From positions 1-38,971 of the IMG/VR virus record IMGVR_UViG_3300045391_003815: DNA of 38,971 nucleotides, one strand, 5' to 3'. Shown here in pieces: positions 1 to 38,971 of this stretch. Below the pieces are notes generated by a model that was not told where the DNA came from, searched no databases, and was given only the letters and a program-made list of their open reading frames with translations. The first letter of the stretch is position 1. The number at the start of each line of letters is the position of its first letter. The position numbers and the translations under genes are program-made. This DNA is from a virus.

Positions 1-30
1 GTCCTCATCCTGTAGGCCAGTGCTATCCGA
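1..30. repeat. Terminal 30-nt direct repeat, copy 1 (circular-assembly overlap)
   Basis: gtcctcatcctgtaggccagtgctatccga is identical to 38942..38971; a minus-strand reading frame crosses the junction without a stop. Confidence 0.95.
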
Positions 31-10805: not shown

Positions 10806-11057
10806 TTATGCGATATTGTCTAGGTCGCCCATCATGTCAGTTTCTAATGCCTGCCTGAGCCGCTGGTTCACCTGCTTAAACTCCTGGACACCCTCTTCGC
10901 TGGTATCAGGGTTAAAAATGGTGAATTTATGCGTGGATTTTTCCATAGCGGTCAGTTTAATCCACAGCTTAGCATTCGAGACGCAGAGTATCACAGTTGT
11001 CACGCCCAAGCACAGAAGCAGGATGCCAAACGTCAATAGTACATACATCATATTCAT
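10806..11057 (-). CDS. Small membrane protein (83 aa) between terminase and portal
   Basis: N-terminal TM helix MYVLLTFGILLLCLGVTTVILCV; start overlaps the TerL stop by 4 nt. Confidence 0.55.
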   Translation of the reverse strand: MNMMYVLLTFGILLLCLGVTTVILCVSNAKLWIKLTAMEKSTHKFTIFNPDTSEEGVQEFKQVNQRLRQALETDMMGDLDNIA

Positions 11058-12439
11058 ATCTCCCTATAGTCACCCATGTTGGGGCAGCTGGGGCTACCCA
11101 ATTCGTCCATCATTCTCACACTGCGGAAGTTCTCATCGTCCTCTTCGCGGTACTCCCTGGTCTCCTCGAGCTGATAGTTCTGCGAGCCCAGTATGTACCT
11201 GAAGTCATCAATCAAATGGTCGTTCTTCTTGGGGATATTCCCGTTTTTATCCTTGAAATAGTTGTCTAGCTCCCAGAAGAACTTAACGCAGCGGTCAGAC
11301 ACCACCAGCTTCTGCTGGAGCATGATGTCTTTCATCAGGGTTAACCCCTCGCTCTTGTCATGGAGGTGCTTGTGGCTAGGCTCTAACCCCTCTTCAAAGT
11401 GGTCGTAGAACTCCTTTGCAAACCAGCTGGCCTGCTCGTCATACCCTTGGCGCCACTTGCGATCCCACAGCTCTTCTCGCTTATCCAGGGCACGCTGACC
11501 TATCTTCTTCACGGTCATCTGCGCCTGGTCAGTCTCATAGATCTCATCTAGCACATAGATCATCTTGGTAAAGGGATCTATGGCCACAAACAGTACAGCG
11601 AAGCAGCTGGAGGAAGCAGGATCTGCCCACCACACGAACATCAGCTTCTTCATCTTCTTCTTTAGGCTGGACATTATCTCTTCATGTGGCTTGACGAAGT
11701 CTTTAGAGAACATCGGGAAGATCTTCTGGCTGCCACCTGGCACAAACTTAGCTGCGTACTCACGCTCCCACGTGTCACCCTCGCCACGGAGGTAAAGGCG
11801 TCTCTTCTCATCCCAGAGCCAGTTGCGATCGACTGCAGGGTTCTGCCAGGTAGGCGCCTGGTAGAAGAGTTTGCCGGGCGTATTCCTATGCTCCTCTGCG
11901 GTTGCAGTGAATTCGCACTCGCGATCTGGTGGCGTACCCAGGAACAGCTCAGGGGCGTTAAAGACCGATAGGTTGGGTCGCATAATATTGCGAAACCTGG
12001 GGTCGTGGTCCTTGTACTCCTCATAGACTAGGATGCCAGGGCGGGTACCGCGATGTGCCTCAAAGTTATCGCTGCCATCTAGCTTGAGATAGCTACCGTT
12101 GATCAGCCGGATACGAGTCTCTGACTGATTCACGTCAGCAACCCAGTGCCTAGGGCCAAAGTTCAGGAGTCGAGGGTCTTCCCAGACGATCTTCTTACCC
12201 TGCTTTAGCTGTGGTGCTACATAGAAGCAGCCGATTCCAGGGAACGTCATCGCCCAGCGCCAGAGGCAGTAAATACCAAACTCAGTCTTACCCCACTTAC
12301 GGCCACACTGGACAAAGATGCTACGGATATCGTCAGAAAAGAGCGCGCTGCCGACATCTATCTGGCCAGGATGTGGCTTAAAGCGAGCGTGAAGCTCCTT
12401 CAGCACTGTGGCGTAGATGGCGGCAGCGTCTCTATTCAT
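11054..12439 (-). CDS. terL: Terminase large subunit (461 aa)
   Basis: Walker A-like CGRKWGKTEF, Walker B-like GILVYEEY, and nuclease-domain motif NDHLIDDFRYILG near the C-terminus. Confidence 0.92.
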   Translation of the reverse strand: MNRDAAAIYATVLKELHARFKPHPGQIDVGSALFSDDIRSIFVQCGRKWGKTEFGIYCLWRWAMTFPGIGCFYVAPQLKQGKKIVWEDPRLLNFGPRHWVADVNQSETRIRLINGSYLKLDGSDNFEAHRGTRPGILVYEEYKDHDPRFRNIMRPNLSVFNAPELFLGTPPDRECEFTATAEEHRNTPGKLFYQAPTWQNPAVDRNWLWDEKRRLYLRGEGDTWEREYAAKFVPGGSQKIFPMFSKDFVKPHEEIMSSLKKKMKKLMFVWWADPASSSCFAVLFVAIDPFTKMIYVLDEIYETDQAQMTVKKIGQRALDKREELWDRKWRQGYDEQASWFAKEFYDHFEEGLEPSHKHLHDKSEGLTLMKDIMLQQKLVVSDRCVKFFWELDNYFKDKNGNIPKKNDHLIDDFRYILGSQNYQLEETREYREEDDENFRSVRMMDELGSPSCPNMGDYREI

Positions 12440-12780
12440 TATCCGACGTGATTGGTCTCAGGGATTTGAGGTTTGTTCATGGCAATCTGGTAGCCCATAC
12501 GGATCACTTCATGCAGTGCATCGCGCTGCGACTCTACTATGAGAACGAGGCGGCGACTTATCTCAAGCTCTTTTTGCTGGATATCGATTTGCTTCTTAAG
12601 GAGGTCAATTGTCTGGGCTTGCTGCCTCCTGGTCCTCTCCAGGTCGTTGAGATTCGCCTCCATTTTCTCCACTACGCTCCAGGGCACTGAGGGCCTCCCG
12701 TCCGGCAGGTATGCCCCCTGAGGGTAGCACGTCTGGAAAGGGGTCTCCGCTTGTCGGCTGCTGCTCGCGTCGTCCTGCAC
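12439..12780 (-). CDS. Small coiled-coil protein coupled to terL (113 aa, or 74 aa from the internal ATG at 12663)
   Basis: Its TAA overlaps the terL ATG (TAATG). The helical heptad-like sequence is LERTRRQQAQTIDLLKKQIDIQQKELE. The 5' part overlaps the TerS-like ORF out of frame. Confidence 0.45.
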   Translation of the reverse strand: MQDDASSSRQAETPFQTCYPQGAYLPDGRPSVPWSVVEKMEANLNDLERTRRQQAQTIDLLKKQIDIQQKELEISRRLVLIVESQRDALHEVIRMGYQIAMNKPQIPETNHVG

Positions 12781-13312
12781 TGATTAGCTCCTTTACGGTC
12801 TTAGGCTCCCTGCGGAAGTAGTCACTTTCGATGACGTTCTTCATCTCCTGCAGGGAAAGGTTTGATAATCCTAGTATCTCTGTGGGCTTCTCTGCTGAGA
12901 GCCTGAATAACTTATCAACTTTTGTGATGATATCGGTAACACGCTGCGCATCCTCAAGGTCTAGTACCGAATTCTTGAGCGCCTCGAGGGAGTCCGCAAT
13001 GAGCGGTAAGCTGGCCCTATAGATTCGGTGCAGCTCACGTTTATTGGTATCAGCCAGCTCTTGGACAAGCTCTTCCTCACGCTTCTGGCGCTGGTGCTTC
13101 CACGTCTTTTCCTCAGGCATGTCCTGCCTGTCGGCGCGCTGCCTATACCCATGAACCCAGTGATGTATCGTCGAGGCCGATAACCCTGTCTCGTCTGCAA
13201 TTTTGCTGATCGAGTAATACTCAAAGTAGAGCGCCTTAGCTTTGGCCTTTAGGTGTGCTGGGACTCGTCTCGTGTGAATCTTTCCCTTCTTCTCTGTCGG
13301 CGAGTCTGACAA
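12605..13312 (-). CDS. Terminase small subunit-like HTH protein (235 aa)
   Basis: N-terminal HTH (YFEYYSISKIADETGLSASTIHHWVHG); sits immediately upstream of terL; low-complexity C-terminal tail. Confidence 0.6.
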   Translation of the reverse strand: MSDSPTEKKGKIHTRRVPAHLKAKAKALYFEYYSISKIADETGLSASTIHHWVHGYRQRADRQDMPEEKTWKHQRQKREEELVQELADTNKRELHRIYRASLPLIADSLEALKNSVLDLEDAQRVTDIITKVDKLFRLSAEKPTEILGLSNLSLQEMKNVIESDYFRREPKTVKELISAGRREQQPTSGDPFPDVLPSGGIPAGREALSALERSGENGGESQRPGEDQEAASPDN

Positions 13313-13567: not shown

Positions 13568-13909
13568 TTATTCGGTCACTTCTACGAGCTGGCCAGCCAC
13601 TACCTTCTTAACACTGACCTTCACGGTAGATGTGGCTTTGCCACACTGGCTCGTGGTTTCGACAGTGTAGACCGTGGTCTTCTTGGGACAGGCCAAGGTC
13701 TGGGCTGTATGTGGACTCTCCAGGCCCGTCGTGGGCGTCCAAGAATAGGTCTGGCCGGCGAGCATTGGCGTACCAATCTGCACGCAGCGCTTGCTATCCT
13801 CGGGCTGCGGCGTAGGCGTGGGAGGCTTGGGCCCCACATCGCTTCCACAGCGAACTACCGTAAAGCAGGCAATCACCACAAAGGCAGTAAGAAAAAAGAA
13901 TGTTCGCAT
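13568..13909 (-). CDS. Exported Ig-like/PKD-like single-domain protein (113 aa)
   Basis: Signal peptide with a possible lipobox (FVVIAC). Motif C-x-x-IG...YSWTPTTGL...TTVYTVETTSQCG...VKVSV is typical of secreted beta-sandwich repeats. GGAG RBS 7 nt upstream. Confidence 0.65.
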   Translation of the reverse strand: MRTFFFLTAFVVIACFTVVRCGSDVGPKPPTPTPQPEDSKRCVQIGTPMLAGQTYSWTPTTGLESPHTAQTLACPKKTTVYTVETTSQCGKATSTVKVSVKKVVAGQLVEVTE

Positions 13910-13919
13910 TGGGTTCTCC

Positions 13920-14828
13920 TTAGTTCACAATGATCATTTGGTCTGGGCCTGCATCAGCTTTAGGCTGCGGGGCACATTCCGCTTTATAGTCGATAAAGGC
14001 CGCTTCAGTGATGACATTGCCACCAGTGAATTTGTCGCCGAGTAAGTAGTAGCCCCAGCCAGCGTCACCCCACGACGTTCCCCAGGAGTTCTTGATGATC
14101 GCGTAGTCGCCAGCCTTGTGGCCGTGCTTCTCACCGCGTAACCAGCCGAACATCGCGTAGCAGTGATTCGTCGCGCCACCGCCGTTGTGCTCTACCCAGC
14201 CGCCATTTCCCAGCGCCGAGGCAGCGCCACAGACTTCGAGCGGACCATGCTCCATCAGAGCGCGCTTGATATCAGCCCAGCTCAGGTTGATAGTGCCGGT
14301 CTTCTCCGCTTTCTCGTGGTAGGGTCCGGTGTACTTGCATCTTTGCGTGACGCCTTTGTACGGATACTCAGACTCGTACACAGCGCCCAGCTTATGGAAC
14401 ACATCCACAGAGATATAGCCACCATTGCACGATCCGAAGCCAGAGCAATCGATGACAAACTGAGGAGACACGTTGATCTTGCTGTTGTCTCTCAGCGCTA
14501 CGACACCTTCCATGGCAGACTTAGCGCCTTGAGCCCAGCAGTCACCGCATTGTTGCTCAAACACTTTGCCAGCCAGGTTGCGGTAGTCGAGTTCCTCGGG
14601 CGGCTCCTCACCAGCGTGGGCGCCCAGGTCAGACGGGAAGAAGTAGGTCGTCTGGCCAGTCTCAGACTTCAGGGGCTTATAGCCAGTGTGGTACTTCTTG
14701 CCATTGATTTCGACGATATCGTACCCGAGCTTCTCATCTCGGTAGACTCTGCTCTCAGCGCGGCACAAGCCGGACTGCAGCAGCAGTAAGAAAAGCAAAC
14801 TACGCAGTATCATTTGATGTCCTTTCAT
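13920..14828 (-). CDS. Secreted papain-family (C1) cysteine protease (302 aa)
   Basis: Signal peptide ILRSLLFLLLLQSGLCRA. Catalytic motifs QQCGDCWAQG (Cys), NHCYAMFGW (His) and IIKNSWGTSWGDAGWGY (Asn/Trp). Confidence 0.85.
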   Translation of the reverse strand: MKGHQMILRSLLFLLLLQSGLCRAESRVYRDEKLGYDIVEINGKKYHTGYKPLKSETGQTTYFFPSDLGAHAGEEPPEELDYRNLAGKVFEQQCGDCWAQGAKSAMEGVVALRDNSKINVSPQFVIDCSGFGSCNGGYISVDVFHKLGAVYESEYPYKGVTQRCKYTGPYHEKAEKTGTINLSWADIKRALMEHGPLEVCGAASALGNGGWVEHNGGGATNHCYAMFGWLRGEKHGHKAGDYAIIKNSWGTSWGDAGWGYYLLGDKFTGGNVITEAAFIDYKAECAPQPKADAGPDQMIIVN

Positions 14829-15217
14829 TAAAATTCCGTTGGAAGAATTGGGGTTGGTTCCTCACCCTGCTCCTTGTCTTTGATCGCATTCTTGATGTCA
14901 GCCAGGCTGTCTTCAAGGGTGACCAAAGCTTTAGTAGGGACCACGGTGCTATCGTTGCACAGCCTCTTGGCTTTCTTGATAGCGCCCACACATACCTTAA
15001 CGAGGTATACGAGACGCGACTCCTGCGGCCTGATATTCCACTGTACTACTGCGGACTCGAGGTTAGATCCATCAGGACCTATGGTATTACAGCACTCGCA
15101 CTGGATGCCGTAGCAGTCAGCCATGTCTACGACGCCAGTCTCCTGCTCTCCGCAGAAGGGGCAGGGCAACAGTGTGAGTCCGCGAGGAATTTCATAGACG
15201 CGTTTGACTGGGCTCAC
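14828..15217 (-). CDS. Lar-family (restriction-alleviation-like) zinc-ribbon protein with C-terminal extension (129 aa)
   Basis: LLPCPFCGEQ...IQCECCNTIGP...ESAVVQWNIRP matches the Lar zinc-ribbon pattern; 4-nt overlap upstream and 1-nt overlap downstream. Confidence 0.7.
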   Translation of the reverse strand: MSPVKRVYEIPRGLTLLPCPFCGEQETGVVDMADCYGIQCECCNTIGPDGSNLESAVVQWNIRPQESRLVYLVKVCVGAIKKAKRLCNDSTVVPTKALVTLEDSLADIKNAIKDKEQGEEPTPILPTEF

Positions 15218-15579
15218 TCTAGTTCCTCCAGGAACGCCCTAACGATACCCAGGAACACGTGGTCCTTGAGGCGTTCTTTGCTATTTAGCTGTTCATAAGG
15301 GACCAGACACGGGTGGGTCTTTGCTAGTAGATCCTTAGGGCCCACTGTCCAGCCGTCTTGTATCTTGCTGGCCATCCAGACTTCATGCAGCTGCTCAGCT
15401 GTGATGTCGGGTTTAGCCAGCACCAAGGATACACCAACGATGGCACTATTCTTAACCTCGAAGGGCGCCGAGTCCCACTCAGGCTGCATATCGACAGTAC
15501 CCCAGGCCCTAGCCCACTCGCGATTAGCGGCGTGGCACAGCCTGGCGATAGCTTCGATCAATTCGGGAGAGATCTTCAC
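15214..15579 (-). CDS. RyR-domain protein (121 aa)
   Basis: HEVWMASKIQDGWTVGPKDLLAKTHPCLVPYEQLNSKERLKD matches the bacterial/phage RyR-domain signature. Confidence 0.75.
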   Translation of the reverse strand: MKISPELIEAIARLCHAANREWARAWGTVDMQPEWDSAPFEVKNSAIVGVSLVLAKPDITAEQLHEVWMASKIQDGWTVGPKDLLAKTHPCLVPYEQLNSKERLKDHVFLGIVRAFLEELE

Positions 15580-16292
15580 TCACACACCGTCTGCAACGCA
15601 GTCTTGATTCCTTCTTGGATCGTAGCCTGCTCAGTTTGACTCCACTGTCCCACGGTCTTCGCCACGATATCACCATGGCAGTTCAGCACGTAAGTAGACG
15701 GGTAGCTAGTGGTGCCCAGCTTCTTGACCAGTTGCCGCTGGCTGTCTTTCAACACCGGATGATTCGGATGGTGCTTAGCAATCCAGTTAGAGTAGTCGCT
15801 GTCGTTACGGTCGATACCAACATCCAACACGACGACACGGGAGTTATCCTTGTAGCTGTCAGCGAGCGCTGCCACAGCAGGAGCATTCATGTTGCAGTAG
15901 GGGCAGGTATTGAAATACGCCTCCACTACCACAACTCCATTCTTGATGCTGTCGGTAGAAAAGACAGTGCCAGGCTGCTCAGCATTCATCTGCGGCAGCG
16001 AGACCGGCAGGATGCCAGAGAAGCGGTCAGGGATAATGACGCAGGAGCAGACCTGATCCAGTTTGCGGCACTGAGACGACTCAACACCCTTGGCATTTTT
16101 ACTGTGTCCCATCGACATGTAGTCCTTAGGACACATCGTTCCTTCAAACCATTCCGGGTCACCAAACTTCACCTTGCAGCTGCAGTCTTCAGTGACCGTA
16201 GGCTCAGTGCTAGAGGCACCAGCATCCGTACAGCCCGCACACATCAATAGGGCTAGAACTCCGAAACAGATCGCATAAATCAATCGAATCAT
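15576..16292 (-). CDS. Exported thioredoxin-fold (TlpA/redoxin-like) protein, probable lipoprotein (238 aa)
   Basis: Signal peptide ending LLMCAGC; Cys-rich linker; CPYC active site in VVVVEAYFNTCPYCNMNAP; AAGGAG RBS. Confidence 0.75.
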   Translation of the reverse strand: MIRLIYAICFGVLALLMCAGCTDAGASSTEPTVTEDCSCKVKFGDPEWFEGTMCPKDYMSMGHSKNAKGVESSQCRKLDQVCSCVIIPDRFSGILPVSLPQMNAEQPGTVFSTDSIKNGVVVVEAYFNTCPYCNMNAPAVAALADSYKDNSRVVVLDVGIDRNDSDYSNWIAKHHPNHPVLKDSQRQLVKKLGTTSYPSTYVLNCHGDIVAKTVGQWSQTEQATIQEGIKTALQTVCE

Positions 16293-17383: not shown

Positions 17384-18082
17384 CTACTTACAAATCAAAT
17401 CGTACAGCTTGGGCGCGATCTTAGGTGCTACCCAGCGATCCATGGCAAACTCAGTCACCATGCCAATGGGGCTGCAGATAAAGAACGTGCCAGCTCCATA
17501 GGTAGCGACATCACAGGTGATAACCGTAACCCAGTAGGTCACCACGGGCGCCAGGCCCCGGTAGTTGGGGTCATGGATGAAGTGCAGCTCAAACTCGATC
17601 TCACCCTCATCACAGGGACTGAACACGACTGGGATGGCATAGTTGATTGTCTTGATGTCAGACAGCCTCAGGGCATAGCAGATCTCATGGCCCAGAGCTG
17701 CTTCGATCTTGTCATAGACACCAGCCAGCCACTGCGACAGCGGCTTAAAGTCACCGATGTTCCGGCCTCCCTGCATATAGGCCTGGAACTCAGGGCGATG
17801 CTGATCCCACTCTTTCGAGAGCTGCTGTGCCAGAGCCTTCTCACCCTTCCGCCGCAGGTTCATGTAGGCAATCTTCATCATGCCGTGCAGAGACTGGTCA
17901 GTCATATCCGCAAGCTTGGCACGGGAGTACATCTTGTTCCCTAGCTTCTCAGCACGACGATTACCTTCCTCCTGCTCCTTGGCAGTGAACTGGCCATTGC
18001 CGTGGATCTCCTGGTACAGCTGCTCTTTAGTGGCAGCAAAGCTGGTAACAGACACTAGGAATAGGGCCAGGACTAACTTCAT
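17384..18082 (-). CDS. Secreted protein of unknown function (232 aa)
   Basis: Signal peptide MKLVLALFLVSVTSFAA; GGAG RBS 7 nt upstream. Confidence 0.7.
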   Translation of the reverse strand: MKLVLALFLVSVTSFAATKEQLYQEIHGNGQFTAKEQEEGNRRAEKLGNKMYSRAKLADMTDQSLHGMMKIAYMNLRRKGEKALAQQLSKEWDQHRPEFQAYMQGGRNIGDFKPLSQWLAGVYDKIEAALGHEICYALRLSDIKTINYAIPVVFSPCDEGEIEFELHFIHDPNYRGLAPVVTYWVTVITCDVATYGAGTFFICSPIGMVTEFAMDRWVAPKIAPKLYDLICK

Positions 18083-19676: not shown

Positions 19677-19719
19677 TAGGCAGGCAGGCCTGTATAGGCA
19701 GGCTAGGCAAGGCTAGGCA
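19677..19719. repeat. Four TAGGCA(G/A)G repeats just upstream of the AT-rich promoter core
   Basis: TAGGCA at 19677, 19695, 19704 and 19714. Confidence 0.8.
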
Positions 19720-19731
19720 GCGTCGTATAAT
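19704..19731 (+). promoter_or_regulatory. Candidate rightward early promoter
   Basis: TAGGCA (19704-19709), 16-nt spacer, TATAAT (19726-19731); the -35 is weak. Confidence 0.4.
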
Positions 19732-19754
19732 AGTTGCCATATATGTATTGTCAT
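19727..19754 (-). promoter_or_regulatory. Candidate leftward early promoter, sharing the AT-rich core with the rightward one
   Basis: On the minus strand: ATGACA (19754-19749), 16-nt spacer, TATTAT (19732-19727). Confidence 0.4.
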
Positions 19755-19974
19755 TCAGGCCGACGGTCTGGAGCTATACTGTGTATTTCTGCAACACTGC
19801 CCCGCCACACCAAGCCACGCCCCTATACCCTGCCTATATCCCGCCACACGTCTATAGCCTGTACAGTATTCCAGCCCCGCCCTGCCACGCCCCAGCCTTA
19901 ACGCCGTGTGGCACACGCCCTGCAATCTATATAGATCGCTAGGCGCTAGTGCCTAGCACACAATGGAGTTAACA

Positions 19975-27624: not shown

Positions 27625-27925
27625 AGGACGCCTTAGCTACAGCGAGCTTTTCCCTGAGAGTCATCTTCGGTCCCTGGTTGAGCCGCATCTTCTCGTCATA
27701 GCCCTCGAACGTCCCGAACTTGCGAAGGTGATCAAAGATATCTGCGAGGAGGCGATACAGCATGCTGTAGTCAGCCTCAGACATTCGGCTCTTATGGAGC
27801 TGAGACTTTATCATTACCTGGACGCTGGGCTTCTTGCCTTCTAGCTCCGCGAACTGGGCTACTACTTTCACCTTCTTGCCGGTTCTGATGGTGGGATACC
27901 AGAATGTCTCTTGCCACACTCTCAT
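27605..27925 (-). CDS. Hypothetical protein (106 aa), last gene of the minus-strand unit
   Basis: 4-nt overlap with the VRR-NUC gene; its 3' end overlaps the convergent XRE gene by 20 nt. Confidence 0.6.
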   Translation of the reverse strand: MRVWQETFWYPTIRTGKKVKVVAQFAELEGKKPSVQVMIKSQLHKSRMSEADYSMLYRLLADIFDHLRKFGTFEGYDEKMRLNQGPKMTLREKLAVAKASFKHALT

Positions 27926-28242
27926 GCTCTTGCCTCTATCTGACTAAGCTCCCTAACCGCGTCATCCACTGACCTGAATACAAACGCCTTGCCGCCATGC
28001 TTCTCCCAGCCTGCCAGCCAGTTATGCTGCTCTGGGCTCACCTTGCCCTCTGGCGTCTTCACCTCTATAGCCAATGGCCAGCCACGCCATATGCCTATCA
28101 GGTCTGCAACTCCACGGCCCCTACCCATGCCAAGCTTGCGCCTGCCCTTGATGCCGATCTGGTCAATGATATTGATGTGACCACCGTTCAGTACGATCCA
28201 GTGAACGATGTTACGCTTGATGTCCTTCTCCAACATTCTCAA
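27922..28242 (-). CDS. VRR-NUC domain nuclease (106 aa)
   Basis: GVADLIGIWRGWPLAIEVKTPEGKVSPEQHNWLAGWEKHGGKAFVFRS (D...E-x-K nuclease core). Confidence 0.85.
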   Translation of the reverse strand: MRMLEKDIKRNIVHWIVLNGGHINIIDQIGIKGRRKLGMGRGRGVADLIGIWRGWPLAIEVKTPEGKVSPEQHNWLAGWEKHGGKAFVFRSVDDAVRELSQIEARA

Positions 28243-28660
28243 AAGAATAGACAGGACGGAGCACAGCTACAAGGTCCTTACGGTGCGTGATGGGTCTGAT
28301 GCGGACGTAGGCATTCTGCTTGATGGCGTCAGCTAGTGTGAGCGTCTCTCCATCTCCTCCACCAGCTTCAACCATGTGGCTATTATCAAGCATAAGGGCA
28401 ACGTGGCTGATGTGGTCAGTAGAACTACCGAAGAAGGCAAGAGAGCCAAGCTCAGTGACGCCGCGTCTCGCAAAAGGCTGGAAGTAGTTGTATAGCCCCT
28501 GAGCAGTTTGTCTTGCGGGAGGCGCTGCGCCAACAGACTTGAGGATCTCTTGCACAAGTCCATTGCAGTCGAAGCCAGCAAGCGGATCATCGCCACCCCA
28601 GACGTAGGGCTTTCCAAGGAGGGAGAGCGCTACTTGATACATCAGATCGAATCTGTTCAA
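28211..28660 (-). CDS. NlpC/P60-family endopeptidase, endolysin (149 aa)
   Basis: LLGKPYVWGGDDPLAGFDCNGLV (catalytic Cys) and ISHVALMLDNSHMVEAGGG (His). Confidence 0.85.
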   Translation of the reverse strand: MNRFDLMYQVALSLLGKPYVWGGDDPLAGFDCNGLVQEILKSVGAAPPARQTAQGLYNYFQPFARRGVTELGSLAFFGSSTDHISHVALMLDNSHMVEAGGGDGETLTLADAIKQNAYVRIRPITHRKDLVAVLRPVYSFENVGEGHQA

Positions 28661-28998
28661 TGCTGCACCTTCTCAATTATCTTTTGGATGTTGTCTGTCG
28701 CCTGCTTGAATTTTTTTTTGAACTCGTACGTACAGGTGCCAGGCTTAGAACAGAGCTTCTCAATTGCTGCCTTGTTGTCTCCGTAAGACTGCTGAGTAAC
28801 ACATAGTTGGCCAACACGCTCTTGGTCCCACTGCGCCTTCGGGACATCCCTTTCGAGCTGCTGCTGAGTGTGAGCACAATAGGCACCATCCGTTCCTGCA
28901 TCGGCACAGACCTCCATGTCCTTGATTTCAACTTGGCTGCACGCGGAAGTGAATAAGGTCGCGGTAAGCATTCCTAAAATCTTCAATCGCCTTGTCAT
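28657..28998 (-). CDS. Lipoprotein, o-spanin-like (113 aa)
   Basis: Signal peptide plus lipobox-like LFTSAC. Its start is embedded 71 nt out of frame in the 3' end of the upstream membrane-protein gene. It is Cys-rich and longer than typical o-spanins. Confidence 0.5.
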   Translation of the reverse strand: MTRRLKILGMLTATLFTSACSQVEIKDMEVCADAGTDGAYCAHTQQQLERDVPKAQWDQERVGQLCVTQQSYGDNKAAIEKLCSKPGTCTYEFKKKFKQATDNIQKIIEKVQH

Positions 28999-29281
28999 GC
29001 TGCTCCTTAGTGGCGTTCGGGTCCTGCTGTATCTTGGCTAAGGCGTCGCTTGCTACCTTAGCTGCGGCTACTTCCTTTTGACACTGTGCGTCAATTTCAC
29101 GATATTTAGCCCAGGTCACAATGGCGTTCGCCAAAAGCCCAGTCAGCCATTTGACTACCAGCCCTATGAGCCAGCCCACCACCGGCATGGTGGTGAGCTT
29201 GGCAAGCTGGGGTATGAGCATAGGCAGTATGCCCATTAACAACTGGGCCAGTACCGCCTGTATCAGCTCAGCGAGATCCAT
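28928..29281 (-). CDS. Membrane protein with charged helical C-terminus (117 aa); i-spanin-like or holin-like
   Basis: Hydrophobic N-terminal 60 aa followed by REIDAQCQKEVAAAKVASDALAKIQQD. Confidence 0.5.
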   Translation of the reverse strand: MDLAELIQAVLAQLLMGILPMLIPQLAKLTTMPVVGWLIGLVVKWLTGLLANAIVTWAKYREIDAQCQKEVAAAKVASDALAKIQQDPNATKEQHDKAIEDFRNAYRDLIHFRVQPS

Positions 29282-29282
29282 A

Positions 29283-29660
29283 CTATTCCTTGAAGTGCTT
29301 GATGACTTCGTTCACGAATACCTGCACCGCAGCAATCACGGTACCGTTGATCACCGCCGCAAGCAGCGAGGTACCGGAGGCCAGCGCCGTCACTACCGGC
29401 GAGATGACAGCAAGGCCGTAGATAGCGAGCAGCTTCCACTTGCCCAGGAGGTCTCCCCAGTGAGAGCTGAACACGACCGTCAGCGTTTGCGTCACGAGCA
29501 CTGCAATGGCTAAGGCACTTGCGCCACTGACACCACCGATAAGCTTTAGGATCTGCGCCAGGACATCAGCGTCTGTGGGCGCAGGCACGATCTCAGCCAG
29601 GGCATGGAAGCCAAACATAGCTGCGAACAAGAACATCAAAGTATATAAGGGGCGTTTCAT
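29283..29660 (-). CDS. Multi-pass membrane protein, holin candidate (125 aa)
   Basis: Signal-like N-terminus plus about three hydrophobic helices; lies in the lysis cluster. Confidence 0.5.
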   Translation of the reverse strand: MKRPLYTLMFLFAAMFGFHALAEIVPAPTDADVLAQILKLIGGVSGASALAIAVLVTQTLTVVFSSHWGDLLGKWKLLAIYGLAVISPVVTALASGTSLLAAVINGTVIAAVQVFVNEVIKHFKE

Positions 29661-29917
29661 CAGGGACTCCTTTTGTTGGTTGTGATGTACTCCAGCTTGC
29701 CTTCTATGTTGGATAGTCGCTGGTTCATCTCAAGCATTGTGTTCCTAACCTCTCTCATGAAGTCGCCTTGCCTGTCCACCCTTGCTGCGATGGCTTCTTG
29801 CTTGGAGGCTATAGTCGTCATCCATGTCGCACCGCCACCAATCACCGTGATAGCGAGGCTGAGCGGGATCAGTGTCCCCTCAGAGATTTGTTTAAGAACG
29901 CCTTTCTCTTTGGTCAT
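29660..29917 (-). CDS. Single-pass membrane protein with coiled-coil tail (85 aa)
   Basis: TM helix LIPLSLAITVIGGGATWMTTIA followed by a helical tail; 4-nt overlap with the upstream gene. Confidence 0.5.
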   Translation of the reverse strand: MTKEKGVLKQISEGTLIPLSLAITVIGGGATWMTTIASKQEAIAARVDRQGDFMREVRNTMLEMNQRLSNIEGKLEYITTNKRSP

Positions 29918-38101: not shown

Positions 38102-38971
38102 TTAACACAGGTAATCGTCGTTAATAATAGGGATGCCTCTGGATACTCTATTGGGCTTCTTATAGGCCTCAGTGATCTGAGCCTCCATCCCGTCTAGTTC
38201 TTCTTTGCCCTCTTTACTGTCGTAAGAGCTGTCCCGTTTTAGGGCTCTCCAGGTCATATAGGCCAGGAGGTAGCGCTCACACTGCTGCGGCAGAGAGGGG
38301 TGGGAGCTGTGATATTCACCAGCAACAACATAGTCGCCCACAGCGATGGTCTCACCACTCGCGAAAGTAAAGTCAGAGTCCACAGTCACAACGCCAGTCG
38401 TCTGGTCTATATCGGTGATCGGGATACCCTTCATCTTCACCGTGCCGTATTTATCGACGACAGTGAGGAAGCCCACCAGTACAGCGTACTCGGCGTCGTC
38501 CCCGGATAGCTCCGTAGAGTCCAGGGTGAGAGCAGTGATGCTGCTAGCACCTAGCGTAACAGCACTGACTTTGCCTCGCCGCTTGTCTATTCGGGGCAGA
38601 ATCTTTTTGTATGTGACCCTGAAGACACCATTATTGTTGGTGGGAATCGGGTTAGCCAGGATTTGACCAGACTGCAGCACATAGCTGTCAGGATCACCAG
38701 TCAGGCCCTGGCCGCGTTCCCGTAGCTCTATTGACTCTAGGTCCCTGTACTCGTCTTCCTGCCCGTTGCAAGAAAACTCGACGTTTTCAATGTAGGCACC
38801 TAGGTGCAGCAGAGCTGGGAGATCGTAGGCCTCTTGATTAGCTACGGCGTTAATCAGCTCAGTCTGTTGGAAGAGCGGGGCGTTAACCGCTGCAATGATA
38901 GACTGCAAGCGCTCTTGGGCATTGCTTGCCCATTCGCAGAAGTCCTCATCCTGTAGGCCAGTGCTATCCGA
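38102..38971 (-). CDS. Body of the wrap-around structural gene (about 309 aa in total with 31..90); adaptor / tail-tubular-A-like by position
   Basis: The track ORF 38102..38908 starts at a TTG. The frame is open upstream to 38971 and continues at 31..90 to an ATG coupled (ATGA) to the preceding gene. Confidence 0.6.
   Translation of the reverse strand, partial: SDSTGLQDEDFCEWASNAQERLQSIIAAVNAPLFQQTELINAVANQEAYDLPALLHLGAYIENVEFSCNGQEDEYRDLESIELRERGQGLTGDPDSYVLQSGQILANPIPTNNNGVFRVTYKKILPRIDKRRGKVSAVTLGASSITALTLDSTELSGDDAEYAVLVGFLTVVDKYGTVKMKGIPITDIDQTTGVVTVDSDFTFASGETIAVGDYVVAGEYHSSHPSLPQQCERYLLAYMTWRALKRDSSYDSKEGKEELDGMEAQITEAYKKPNRVSRGIPIINDDYLC
38942..38971. repeat. Terminal 30-nt direct repeat, copy 2
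   Basis: Identical to 1..30. Confidence 0.95.

What the first reader, a model, noticed from the sequence alone, without database searches (positions are those of the whole stretch)
13568..16292. Tightly coupled module of exported and unusual accessory proteins upstream of the packaging genes
Five consecutive genes are joined by 4-nt or 1-nt overlaps or gaps of 10 nt or less. They encode a signal/lipobox thioredoxin-fold CPYC protein, a RyR-domain protein and a Lar-like zinc-ribbon protein. These are followed by a signal-peptide papain-family C1 protease with a full Cys/His/Asn signature and an exported Ig-like domain protein. A secreted C1 protease paired with an exported thiol-disulfide oxidoreductase and a Cys-rich partner is not a standard phage module. 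It may be an envelope-remodelling, host-interaction or superinfection-exclusion system. No function can be assigned from the sequence.
Basis: partly seen in the sequence, partly recalled or inferred. Interest (0 to 1): 0.65.

Follow-up and report, generated by a model that had tools for sequence, protein, structure and literature searches.

The report
Phage exported papain-like protease with split anchor
An uncultured phage, probably of predatory Bdellovibrio-like bacteria, encodes an exported cathepsin-like protease next to a membrane-anchored protein that seems to carry the rest of the protease's last domain. Relatives keep this pair beside their cell-lysis genes, so it may be an undescribed helper for phage escape.

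Summary
Five minus-strand genes at 13568-16292 overlap by 4, 4 and 1 nt or lie 10 nt apart. HMMs confirm Redoxin (CPYC), RyR, Lar-like and Peptidase_C1 with Gln/Cys/His/Asn.

The five genes are not one conserved unit. Only the closest relative keeps all five.

The conserved core is the C1A protease plus the downstream small protein:
- In 12 of 17 related phage loci the two are adjacent genes or a single polypeptide.
- The small protein is an Ig_7/PKD-like domain lacking its first strand. That strand sits at the C-terminus of every unfused protease.
- I infer a split domain that tethers the protease to a membrane.

Exported thioredoxin-fold genes of two unrelated types (CPYC, WCGPC) recur near the protease in six phage contigs. 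The CPYC type is otherwise found almost only in Bdellovibrionota chromosomes, which suggests the host.

RyR and Lar-like are cytoplasmic passengers.

In 9 of 17 loci the protease lies beside holin, spanin or endolysin genes. This window has a separate, complete lysis cassette at 28.2-29.9 kb.

Best reading, at moderate confidence: a membrane-tethered envelope protease acting as an accessory lysis or egress factor, with a redox helper. No homologue exists in 50,697 GenBank phage records.

The parts
13920..14828 (-). Exported papain-family (C1A) cysteine protease, 302 aa, with an N-terminal signal peptide (about aa 1-24) and no I29 prodomain.
   Evidence: - Peptidase_C1 at 3.9e-28.
- Catalytic Q92 (14553-14555), C97 (14538-14540), H222 (14163-14165) and N247 (14088-14090) are invariant in 35 homologues.
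- AF2 model pLDDT 89.9; Foldseek top hits are procathepsin K, X and L and Der f 1.
13923..13976 (-). C-terminal tail of the protease, CAPQPKADAGPDQMIIVN (aa 285-302). It is the predicted first beta-strand of the split Ig_7/PKD-like domain.
   Evidence: - All 26 unfused representatives end 7-11 aa after the AxAG motif.
- In the AF2 model of the natural fusion P0018 the equivalent KIIIK is a short beta-strand at the start of the all-beta C-terminal region.
- In the window protein modelled alone the tail has low confidence, pLDDT about 46-51.
13568..13909 (-). Membrane-anchored partner, 113 aa: hydrophobic N-terminus ending VVRC(21)GS, a Pro-rich linker, then an Ig_7/PKD-like beta-sandwich that lacks its first strand.
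   Evidence: - It is the next gene, or is fused to C1, in 12 of 17 loci.
- The partners in L029 (LIAGC) and L003 (IVSC) have canonical lipoboxes.
- Its profile hits giant Ig_7/K319L-PKD repeat proteins.
- Strong RBS AAGGAG upstream.
15576..16292 (-). Exported thioredoxin-fold (Redoxin/TlpA-like) protein, 238 aa: a signal or lipoprotein-like N-terminus (LLMCAGC), a Cys-rich extension of about 80 aa, and CPYC at aa 130-133 (15894-15905).
   Evidence: - Redoxin at 7e-13.
- CPYC, HPNHPV and YPS are invariant in 18 homologues.
- The family was found in 40 loci of GTDB species genomes, most labelled Bdellovibrionota lineages.
- It recurs near C1 in L027 and L029 and on the L002 contig.
15214..15579 (-). 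RyR-domain protein, 121 aa, with no signal peptide. A cytoplasmic accessory gene, not part of the conserved core.
   Evidence: - RyR at 4.7e-13 and phrog_5154 at 8.8e-34, function unknown.
- A homologue sits next to C1 only in L027.
14828..15217 (-). Lar-like zinc-ribbon protein, 129 aa (Cys at 19, 22, 35, 40, 42, 43), with no signal peptide. A cytoplasmic accessory gene, not part of the conserved core.
   Evidence: - Lar_restr_allev at 9.5e-8 and phrog_599 at 3e-8.
- A homologue sits next to C1 only in L027.
- Cys positions.
28211..29917 (-). Context, not part of the finding: a separate canonical lysis cassette.
- TM protein, 29660-29917.
- Multi-TM holin-like protein, 29283-29660.
- i-spanin-like protein, 28928-29281.
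- Overlapping o-spanin-like lipoprotein (LFTSAC), 28657-28998.
- NlpC/P60 endolysin candidate, 28211-28660.
   Evidence: - NLPC_P60 at 1.5e-13.
- Hydropathy and sequences.
- Homologues of these genes directly flank C1 in L011, L018, L019, L004, L010 and L029.

Best explanation
**The core.** The region holds one conserved two-gene system, a recurrent helper and two passengers.
- The core is an exported papain-family (C1A) cysteine protease (13920-14828) and the membrane-anchored protein encoded 10 nt downstream (13568-13909).
- The partner carries an Ig_7/PKD-like beta-sandwich that lacks its first strand. That strand is the conserved C-terminal tail of the protease.
- I infer that the two products reassemble after export, so that the protease is tethered to a membrane through a Pro-rich linker.
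- Relatives reach the same end state in three other ways: the domain is fused to the protease, the protease carries its own lipobox, or a different small lipoprotein gene follows the protease.

**The helper.** The CPYC thioredoxin-fold protein (15576-16292) is of a type otherwise found in Bdellovibrionota chromosomes. I infer that it sets the redox state of the nine-Cys protease in the oxidising periplasm. It could keep the catalytic thiol reduced or manage the structural disulfides.

**The passengers.** The RyR and Lar-like proteins are cytoplasmic and share only the transcript.

**Biological role (inferred).** The pair is an accessory lysis or egress factor that cuts envelope or surface proteins which the holin-endolysin-spanin set does not deal with.

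**Shown.** Families, catalytic residues, fusion and fission pattern, gene neighbourhoods.

**Inferred.** Complementation in trans, redox dependence, substrate, timing, host.
For: **Enzyme identity**
- Peptidase_C1 above threshold, with Q/C/H/N invariant.
- Confident papain fold.

**Core pair**
- The Ig-like gene or domain is adjacent to C1 in window, L027, L001, L002, L003 and L029, and fused to C1 in L008, L011, L012, L016, L017 and L018.

**Split domain**
- Twenty-six unfused representatives all keep the tail PQPxAxAGxDxxIxx, ending 7-11 aa after AxAG.
- All 6 stand-alone partners lack exactly that segment.
- The one stand-alone Ig gene beside an already fused protease (L012) keeps it.
- In the AF2 model of fusion P0018 the segment is a short beta-strand just upstream of the strand equivalent to the partner's CVQIG.

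**Tethering**
- In all 16 loci whose protease gene is complete (all but the fragment L019), the protease has its own lipobox or is followed directly by a gene for a lipoprotein or lipoprotein-like membrane anchor.

**Lysis link**
- Homologues of this window's holin-like and spanin-like genes lie immediately upstream of C1 in L011, L018 and L019 and downstream in L004.
- Peptidoglycan hydrolase genes lie within about 2 kb of C1: CHAP in L004, M15 in L011, L016 and L009, NlpC/P60 in L010 and L029.
- Together with L008 (holin- and spanin-like genes upstream, DUF5675 downstream) this makes 9 of 17 loci.

**Redox helper**
- CPYC-type Trx occurs near C1 in window, L027 and L029, and 10 kb from it on the L002 contig, there beside the spanin pair.
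- An unrelated WCGPC-type exported Trx lies 37 nt upstream of C1 in L014, and 112 nt beyond the extra Ig gene that follows C1 in L012.

**Host**
- The CPYC family was found in 40 loci, most labelled Bdellovibrionota lineages, in chromosomal context.
- A Bdellovibrionota chromosome encodes a signal peptide-C1-Ig fusion.
Against: - In this window the protease lies 13 kb from the lysis cassette, which already looks complete with holin, overlapping spanin-like pair and NlpC/P60.
- It is co-transcribed with a Lar-like gene, a type usually needed early.
- In L014 it sits among replication genes.
- No strong promoter or terminator defines its timing.
- Complementation in trans rests on sequence patterns and a model of a fused homologue.
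- In the window's clade the partner has Arg at position -1 of the putative lipobox (VVRCG). It may be a signal-anchored protein rather than a lipoprotein.
- Trx-fold genes are absent from the flanks of most C1 loci, and I have no denominator for Trx in C1-free phages of the same hosts.
- The host assignment rests on one host-like gene and one distant chromosomal homologue.
- No activity, substrate or expression data exist.
Confidence: 0.45

Rival explanations
1. Receptor-destroying or superinfection-exclusion protease. The tethered protease trims surface or envelope proteins of the infected cell, such as the phage receptor. This would block secondary infection and stop progeny from sticking to debris.
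For: - The protease is exported and membrane-tethered, with an adhesin-type Ig_7/PKD-like domain.
- In this window it sits in the leftward operon that starts at the divergent promoter region near 19.7 kb, together with a Lar-like host-takeover gene.
- It is not needed for canonical lysis here, because a full cassette exists elsewhere.
Against: - In 9 of 17 relatives the gene is embedded in or beside the lysis cassette, not among early genes.
- As far as I know, no exclusion system works through a C1 protease.
- No receptor or timing information is available.
Confidence: 0.17
2. Auxiliary 'predation' genes. A phage of a predatory Bdellovibrio-like host carries a secreted protease and the host-type oxidoreductase that folds it. 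Together they would boost digestion of prey protein and so the supply of amino acids for phage replication.
For: - The CPYC Trx family is otherwise confined almost entirely to Bdellovibrionota chromosomes.
- A Bdellovibrionota chromosome encodes a C1-Ig fusion with the same architecture.
- In 7 host loci the Trx gene lies about 0.9 kb from an exported C39-like cysteine peptidase.
Against: - The phage protease clade has no close cellular relative. The best matches are 24-30% identical, so this is an old phage family rather than a recent host pick-up.
- Tethering to the producer's membrane and placement next to lysis genes fit poorly with a freely secreted digestive enzyme.
- The host assignment is itself indirect.
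Confidence: 0.13
3. No functional system beyond the protease-partner pair. The Trx, RyR and Lar-like genes are independent accessory genes that happen to be packed together, as is usual in phage operons.
For: - RyR and Lar-like accompany C1 only in the closest relative.
- Most C1 loci have no Trx gene within the fetched flanks.
- Overlapping start and stop codons are common throughout this genome.
Against: - Two unrelated exported Trx families have each been placed next to C1 in different genome architectures.
- Trx-like and C1 genes are otherwise almost absent from known phages: 1 and 0 of 50,697 records.
Confidence: 0.2
4. Virion maturation (prohead) or polyprotein-processing protease, used inside the cell during assembly because the gene lies just upstream of the packaging genes.
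For: Only its position upstream of the terminase, portal and capsid genes.
Against: - A cleavable signal peptide, a conserved disulfide-type Cys pattern and a membrane-anchored partner all place it outside the cytoplasm.
- In other phages the gene lies far from the head genes.
- The scans gave no match to a prohead-protease family.
Confidence: 0.02

Closest known systems
Papain-family C1A peptidases (cathepsins K, L and X; mite allergen Der f 1)
   Same: - Pfam PF00112 match.
- Gln/Cys/His/Asn catalytic set.
- CGxCW and NSWG motifs, and a disulfide-type Cys pattern.
- Predicted two-lobe fold, TM about 0.8 on the target.
   Different: - No I29 prodomain. A conserved N-terminal region of about 50 aa with an invariant TG(Y/F) motif takes its place.
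- One-residue deletion between the oxyanion Gln and the CGxC motif.
- C-terminal strand or domain of Ig_7/PKD type.
- Encoded by phages and only 24-30% identical to any cellular protein found.
Baculovirus V-CATH cathepsin with chitinase (host liquefaction for virus release). From my own knowledge.
   Same: A virus-encoded C1A protease with a secretion signal that acts on host structures to free progeny, together with a second envelope-degrading enzyme.
   Different: - It belongs to an insect virus, has a classic I29 proenzyme and is retained in the ER with chitinase.
- No relationship beyond the family level was tested here.
Mycobacteriophage LysB and other accessory lysis proteins (spanins, disruptin). 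From my own knowledge.
   Same: - An extra enzyme encoded in or beside the holin-endolysin cassette that deals with a non-peptidoglycan envelope layer.
- The two-gene arrangement of a periplasmic protein plus a lipoprotein resembles the topology of Rz/Rz1.
   Different: - LysB is an esterase.
- Spanins are non-enzymatic fusion proteins with a TM anchor and coiled coil.
- This phage already has a spanin-like pair.
- The component here is a protease, and in this window it is not in the cassette.
TlpA/ResA/CcmG-type periplasmic thiol:disulfide oxidoreductases, and redox control of the P1 Lyz SAR endolysin. From my own knowledge.
   Same: - An exported Redoxin fold with CxxC and a cis-Pro-type YPS loop.
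- A precedent that a catalytic Cys of a lysis enzyme can be redox-gated in the periplasm.
   Different: - The CPYC motif is glutaredoxin-like.
- The family is specific to Bdellovibrionota and their presumed phages.
- It would act in trans on a protease rather than by intramolecular isomerisation.
- No redox data exist.
Ig_7 (CHU_C-associated) / K319L-like PKD repeats of giant surface adhesins, and donor-strand complementation in chaperone-usher pili. The pilus comparison is from my own knowledge.
   Same: - The partner's profile matches thousands of proteins; the four top hits scanned carry tandem Ig_7/PKD-like repeats.
- An Ig-like fold completed by a strand from another polypeptide has precedent in pilus subunits.
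   Different: - Here a single domain is split between an enzyme and a membrane anchor.
- There is no direct Pfam hit for the window protein.
- Complementation is inferred, not shown.
NlpI-Prc of E. coli (an outer-membrane lipoprotein adaptor for a periplasmic protease). From my own knowledge.
   Same: A soluble exported protease positioned and targeted by a separate lipoprotein.
   Different: - The folds are unrelated: a TPR adaptor and an S41 protease.
- It is a cellular housekeeping system.
- No homology was tested or expected.

Membership tests
Peptidase C1 (papain family, Pfam PF00112 / MEROPS C1A) | Profile match above the curated threshold | tested here: met
   99.5 bits against a cut-off of 20.7, E 3.9e-28, aa 77-262. 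A PDB profile search gives Der f 1 at 2.5e-22.
Peptidase C1 (papain family, Pfam PF00112 / MEROPS C1A) | Catalytic Cys25/His159 with Asn175 and oxyanion Gln19 (papain numbering) | tested here: met
   Q92, C97, H222 and N247 are invariant in 35 sequences and align to the Der f 1 motifs CGSCWA, HAV and NSW.
Peptidase C1 (papain family, Pfam PF00112 / MEROPS C1A) | Papain-like two-lobe fold | tested here: met
   AF2 pLDDT 89.9. Foldseek gives probability 1.00 to cathepsins K, L and S and Der f 1, with target-normalised TM about 0.8.
Peptidase C1 (papain family, Pfam PF00112 / MEROPS C1A) | I29 inhibitor prodomain, typical of cathepsin-L-like C1A zymogens | tested here: not met
   No PF08246 in the window protein or in any phage-type homologue, whereas the eukaryotic hits have it. 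Not every C1 member has this domain, so family membership stands.
Peptidase C1 (papain family, Pfam PF00112 / MEROPS C1A) | Proteolytic activity sensitive to E-64 | not testable with these tools
   Needs biochemistry.
Thioredoxin-fold Redoxin/TlpA-like periplasmic oxidoreductase | Profile match above threshold, a CxxC active site and a cis-Pro loop | tested here: met
   Redoxin 49 bits against 26.6 and AhpC-TSA 44 bits against 26. CPYC and YPS are invariant in 18 homologues.
Thioredoxin-fold Redoxin/TlpA-like periplasmic oxidoreductase | Export to the periplasm | tested here: inconclusive
   There is an N-terminal hydrophobic segment at aa 1-24, and CAGC is conserved in the closest homologue. 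No SignalP or LipoP was available, and the lipobox is imperfect.
RyR domain (PF02026) | Profile match above threshold | tested here: met
   49.6 bits against 27.4. Matches phrog_5154, function unknown.
Lar restriction-alleviation protein (PF14354) | Profile match and zinc-ribbon cysteines | tested here: met
   32.6 bits against 28.6, which is marginal. Cys at 19, 22, 40 and 43. Restriction alleviation itself is not testable here.
Ig_7 / K319L-like PKD beta-sandwich domain | Direct profile match of the 113-aa protein | tested here: not met
   No Pfam hit, even at E 10. Fused homologues give only sub-threshold hits: K319L-like_PKD 25.5 bits against 27, and PKD_6 at 0.0047.
Ig_7 / K319L-like PKD beta-sandwich domain | Transitive homology and an all-beta fold | tested here: met
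   Its profile hits 5816 representatives. The top hits have 10-40 repeats; the four scanned score Ig_7 at up to 2e-29 and K319L-like_PKD at up to 6e-18. The equivalent region of P0018 is modelled as eight beta-strands with pLDDT 84-94.
Phage lysis cassette component | Encoded within or next to holin, endolysin or spanin genes | tested here: inconclusive
   Not met in this window, where the cassette is 13 kb away. Met in 9 of 17 related loci.
Two-component spanin (Rz/Rz1 type) | An inner-membrane-anchored coiled-coil subunit plus a small outer-membrane lipoprotein, often with overlapping genes | tested here: not met
   The protease has a cleavable-type signal and an enzyme fold, not a TM anchor and coiled coil. 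A separate pair with those features exists at 28657-29281.
Prohead (capsid maturation) protease | A cytoplasmic protein of a prohead-protease family, encoded between portal and capsid genes | tested here: not met
   It has a signal peptide, belongs to the C1 family and lies upstream of the terminase.

The most novel reading that the evidence does not exclude
Phages of predatory Bdellovibrio-like bacteria carry a previously undescribed type of lysis or egress accessory. It is a cathepsin-like protease exported ahead of lysis and fastened to a membrane anchor by completing a split Ig-like domain in trans. A dedicated periplasmic thioredoxin-fold protein switches it on or keeps it active. It would cut envelope proteins, possibly including those of the prey-derived compartment in which the host grows, so that progeny can escape.
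Probability: 0.22. Interest if true: 0.78.

Novelty: new variant of a known kind. Interest (0 to 1): 0.62.

Why it matters
- Papain-family C1A proteases are essentially unknown in phages. None of 50,697 GenBank phage records has a detectable homologue, yet about 80 cluster representatives exist, many of them on phage-sized metagenomic contigs.
- If the pair is a lysis or egress factor, it adds a proteolytic step to the holin-endolysin-spanin scheme.
- It would also be an example of an enzyme tethered by a domain split between two genes.
- The recurrent thioredoxin-fold neighbour offers a testable case of redox control of a phage envelope enzyme acting in trans.
- The host-type oxidoreductase also provides a handle on a large, uncultured group of phages that probably infect Bdellovibrionota. 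Very few phages are known for that phylum.

Tried and rejected
**Searches that found nothing useful**
- DNA (blastn) and protein searches of the region against GenBank phages gave no DNA match, 0 C1 hits and 1 weak Trx hit.
- TerL and capsid protein searches gave only 22-29% identity, so they say nothing about the host.
- Searches for prophage copies or close cellular homologues of the protease in 185,579 species genomes gave at best 23-30% identity over more than a fragment of the protein. One of these is a Bdellovibrionota chromosomal C1-Ig fusion (L088, 24% identical over the full-length alignment).
- Literature searches for phage C1 or cathepsin-like proteases, bdellophages, and the sample and run accessions found nothing relevant.

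**Attempts that failed**
I modelled the natural fusion P0018 instead.
- Foldseek on that model was dominated by the protease domain and said nothing about the Ig domain.

**Hypotheses rejected or weakened**
- 'The protease pair replaces the spanin': rejected, because the window has its own overlapping spanin-like pair.
- 'In the second protease subgroup the partner lipoprotein carries a copy of the protease's C-terminal domain': supported in only 1 of 4 loci (L004, z 7.2), so I do not claim it.
- Prohead protease: rejected on localisation signals.

**Other**
- The promoter and terminator scan gave no more sites than shuffled sequence and did not settle timing.

Full report
**What is in the window**

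The window is a complete contig. Its two ends share an exact 30-nt direct repeat, the usual sign of a circular assembly. GC is about 54% throughout and there are no tRNAs.

- Genes on the minus strand run from about 19.5 kb down to 0.35 kb and continue across the junction from 38.9 to 27.6 kb. A plus-strand block at 20-27.6 kb carries replication-type genes such as AAA_24.
- The capsid and adaptor proteins are distantly SU10-like. The terminase small and large subunits lie at 12605-13312 and 11054-12439.
- Nothing in 50,697 GenBank phage records resembles the region at the DNA level. The terminase and capsid proteins reach only 22-29% identity to cultured phages.

**Check of the observation**

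The five minus-strand ORFs, their coordinates and their junctions (overlaps of 4, 4 and 1 nt, then a 10-nt gap) are as described.

Pfam supports four assignments:
- Redoxin/AhpC-TSA, with CPYC at aa 130-133.
- RyR.
- Lar_restr_allev, marginally.
- Peptidase_C1, strongly.

The protease checks out in detail:
- Q92, C97, H222 and N247 are invariant across 35 homologues and align with the catalytic motifs of Der f 1.
- An AlphaFold2 model (pLDDT 89.9) matches cathepsins and their proenzymes.

The 113-aa protein has no direct Pfam hit. A profile built from it matches 5816 representatives. The best hits are giant proteins with 10-40 tandem repeats, and the four I scanned are labelled Ig_7 (CHU_C-associated) and K319L-like PKD by Pfam. 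'Ig-like' is therefore right.

Hydrophobic N-termini are present in the Trx protein, the protease and the small protein. They are absent from the RyR and Lar-like proteins.

Tight spacing is normal for this genome and is not evidence of a module.

**The five genes are not one evolutionary unit**

- The closest relative (L027, 8.5 kb; protease 82% identical) keeps Trx-RyR-Lar-(72 aa)-C1-Ig-p109-TerS.
- Beyond it, RyR and Lar-like homologues disappear from the neighbourhood.
- About 80 cluster representatives of this protease clade exist, many on contigs of 30-52 kb.
- Their genome types differ: SPP1-type portal, baseplate-wedge or Mu Gp48 myovirus genes, and SU10-like genes here.

**The conserved core is the protease plus the Ig-like protein**

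Across 17 distinct loci the Ig-like sequence falls into three groups:
- It is the next gene in window, L027, L001, L002, L003 and L029.
- It is fused to the C-terminus of the protease in L008, L011, L012, L016, L017 and L018. In all of these but L012 the protease also has an N-terminal lipobox, and P0010 (L011) also has an N-terminal Ig copy.
- It is replaced by a different C-terminal domain in a second subgroup (L004, L009, L010, L014).

L019 is a fragment that stops inside the protease gene.

**The split domain**

- Of 82 representatives, 26 unfused proteases all end 7-11 residues after a conserved PQPxAxAG motif.
- All six stand-alone partners lack exactly that segment. They begin their domain at the equivalent of CVQIGTP, after a hydrophobic N-terminus and a Pro-rich linker.
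- The one stand-alone Ig lipoprotein that sits beside an already fused protease (L012) keeps the segment, as CNPKPVANAGEDKILI.
- In the AlphaFold2 model of the natural fusion P0018 (pLDDT 82.8, C-terminal domain 84-94), the segment KIIIK is modelled as a short beta-strand. It lies just upstream of the strand that matches the partner's CVQIG.
- KIIIK corresponds to QMIIV in the window protease. When the window protease is modelled alone, this tail has low confidence.

I infer that the tail completes the partner's sandwich in trans.

**Membrane attachment is universal**

- The partners in L029 (LIAGC), L003 (IVSC) and L012 (VASC) have canonical lipoboxes.
- The window clade has xRCG, which is non-canonical and might be an uncleaved anchor.
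- Fused proteases in L008, L011, L016, L017 and L018 carry their own lipobox.
- Second-subgroup proteases are each followed by a lipoprotein gene of 60-80 aa, overlapping the protease stop codon in three of the four loci.
- So in all 16 loci whose protease gene is complete, the protease is either a lipoprotein itself or is followed by a membrane-anchor gene.

**Link to lysis**

This window has a canonical cassette far from the finding:
- TM protein, 29660-29917.
- Multi-TM holin-like protein, 29283-29660.
- i-spanin-like protein, 28928-29281.
- Overlapping o-spanin-like lipoprotein with LFTSAC, 28657-28998.
- NlpC/P60, 28211-28660.

Homologues of these genes flank the protease elsewhere:
- In L011, L018 and L019 they lie immediately upstream of the protease.
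- In L004 they lie downstream.
- In L008 the holin-like protein has a homologue upstream of the protease, followed by a small unrelated lipoprotein gene.

Peptidoglycan hydrolase genes lie within about 2 kb of the protease in several loci:
- L004: CHAP.
- L011, L016 and L009: M15.
- L010 and L029: NlpC/P60.
- L008 has a DUF5675 gene in the same position.

In total, 9 of 17 loci have the protease beside lysis genes. The window's own clade (window, L027, L001, L002) instead has it just upstream of the terminase. L014 has it among replication genes.

**The thioredoxin-fold neighbour**

The CPYC family has invariant CPYC, HPNHPV and YPS motifs. It occurs in these positions:
- Near the protease in window and L027.
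- 1.4 kb from it in L029.
- On the same contig as L002, there beside the spanin pair.

By matching contig lengths, it also seems to share a 5.7-kb contig with protease P0017.

A second, unrelated exported Trx with WCGPC lies 37 nt upstream of the protease in L014. In L012 it lies 112 nt beyond the extra Ig gene that follows the protease.

Two different Trx families placed next to the same protease argue for a functional link. However, most loci lack a Trx within the fetched flanks, and I have no proper denominator.

The mechanism is inference. A protease with nine Cys, including the catalytic one, that works in an oxidising compartment may need its thiol kept reduced or its disulfides managed.

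**Host**

- Motif-based scanning of 185,579 species genomes found the CPYC family in 40 loci. Most are labelled Bdellovibrionota lineages (Bdellovibrionaceae, Pseudobdellovibrionaceae, Oligoflexales); the rest carry broad or probably mis-binned labels. They are 38-55% identical to the window protein.
- These loci are in ordinary chromosomal context: acyl-CoA dehydrogenase, TPR protein, adenine deaminase.
- No other window gene has a homologue in those loci.
- A 524-kb Bdellovibrionota contig encodes a 444-aa protein of signal peptide, C1 and Ig. It is collinear with the phage fusions (24% identity) and passes the Pfam C1 threshold.
- I therefore propose Bdellovibrionota as the host phylum, at moderate confidence.

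**Interpretation**

The molecular picture is well supported: an exported C1A protease held at a membrane by a cognate anchor, sometimes with a periplasmic oxidoreductase.

The biological role is inferred. I favour an accessory lysis or egress function because of the repeated placement in lysis cassettes.

Rival readings are:
- a receptor-destroying or exclusion protease;
- a predation-boosting auxiliary gene;
- for the Trx, RyR and Lar-like genes, mere co-location.

A prohead-protease role is excluded by the export signals.

**Comparison with known systems**

- The enzyme is a member of the C1 family, but without the I29 prodomain.
- Functionally it resembles accessory lysis enzymes such as LysB, the baculovirus V-CATH/chitinase pair, and lipoprotein-adapted periplasmic proteases such as NlpI-Prc. 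It belongs to none of these.
- It is not a spanin.
- I found no description of such a phage system in the searchable literature.

Noticed in passing
window 1-30 and 38942-38971: The two ends of the window share an exact 30-nt direct repeat. The contig is therefore a circularly assembled, probably complete genome of about 38.9 kb.
   Followed up: partly
window 28211-29917 (minus strand): A complete Gram-negative-type lysis cassette: a TM protein, a multi-TM holin-like protein, an i-spanin-like protein whose gene overlaps an o-spanin-like lipoprotein gene by 71 nt, and an NlpC/P60 endolysin candidate. A VRR-NUC nuclease gene follows at 27922-28242.
   Followed up: partly
window 15576-16292 and 13568-13909: The gene calls stored in the public collection start the Trx protein at aa 41 (198 aa) and the small protein at M49 (65 aa). 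Both calls remove the signal sequences. Full-length homologues and good ribosome-binding sites support the longer forms.
   Followed up: yes
window 17384-18082 (minus strand): A further exported protein of 232 aa (signal MKLVLALFLVSVTSFAATK) lies upstream of the module. It has no Pfam or PHROG hit and no homologue in the closest relative, L027.
   Followed up: no
window 10806-11057 (minus strand): An 83-aa protein with a strongly hydrophobic N-terminus is encoded between the large terminase and portal genes. This is an unusual place for a membrane protein.
   Followed up: no
L034, L035, L037, L039, L041, L044, L050 (Bdellovibrionales-type MAG loci): In seven host chromosomes an exported Peptidase_C39_2 (papain-fold) gene lies close to the CPYC Trx gene: 0.8-0.9 kb downstream on the opposite strand in six, and 2 kb downstream on the same strand in L050. 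This is a second pairing of this oxidoreductase with a secreted cysteine peptidase. It could simply be shared synteny among related genomes.
   Followed up: partly
L004 5051-7289; L009, L010 and L014 just downstream of the protease: - A second protease subgroup (about 45 of 82 representatives) has a different C-terminal domain of about 55 aa.
- In all four such loci it is followed directly by a lipoprotein gene of 60-80 aa.
- Only the L004 partner resembles the protease's C-terminal domain (z 7.2).
- In L004 a trypsin-like serine protease gene overlaps the start of the C1 gene by 4 nt.
   Followed up: partly
L029 8001-8648 (P0151 N-terminus), L012 9132-9410, L003 8776-8997: - A small exported Cys-rich module (C.ARN..G..[FY]RA.D..EN...CE..FRCYP) occurs in three contexts.
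- It is fused to the N-terminus of the CPYC Trx in L029.
- It is a separate gene overlapping the WCGPC Trx gene in L012.
- It is free-standing near the protease in L003.
- The window Trx has a different Cys-rich extension of about 80 aa, shared only with L027.
   Followed up: no
P0033 and P0079 (protease homologues), N-terminal regions: Some protease homologues carry an N-terminal insert rich in CxC and CxxC motifs (CNCPPDCHCHEPGGTCPGEECSEDCEC), which looks like a metal-binding or knottin-like module.
   Followed up: no
window 19700-19760: Back-to-back sigma-70-like promoter matches (10 of 12 positions each) sit in the gap between the leftward and rightward gene blocks. They may be the early divergent promoters. 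The scan as a whole found no more sites than in shuffled sequence.
   Followed up: no
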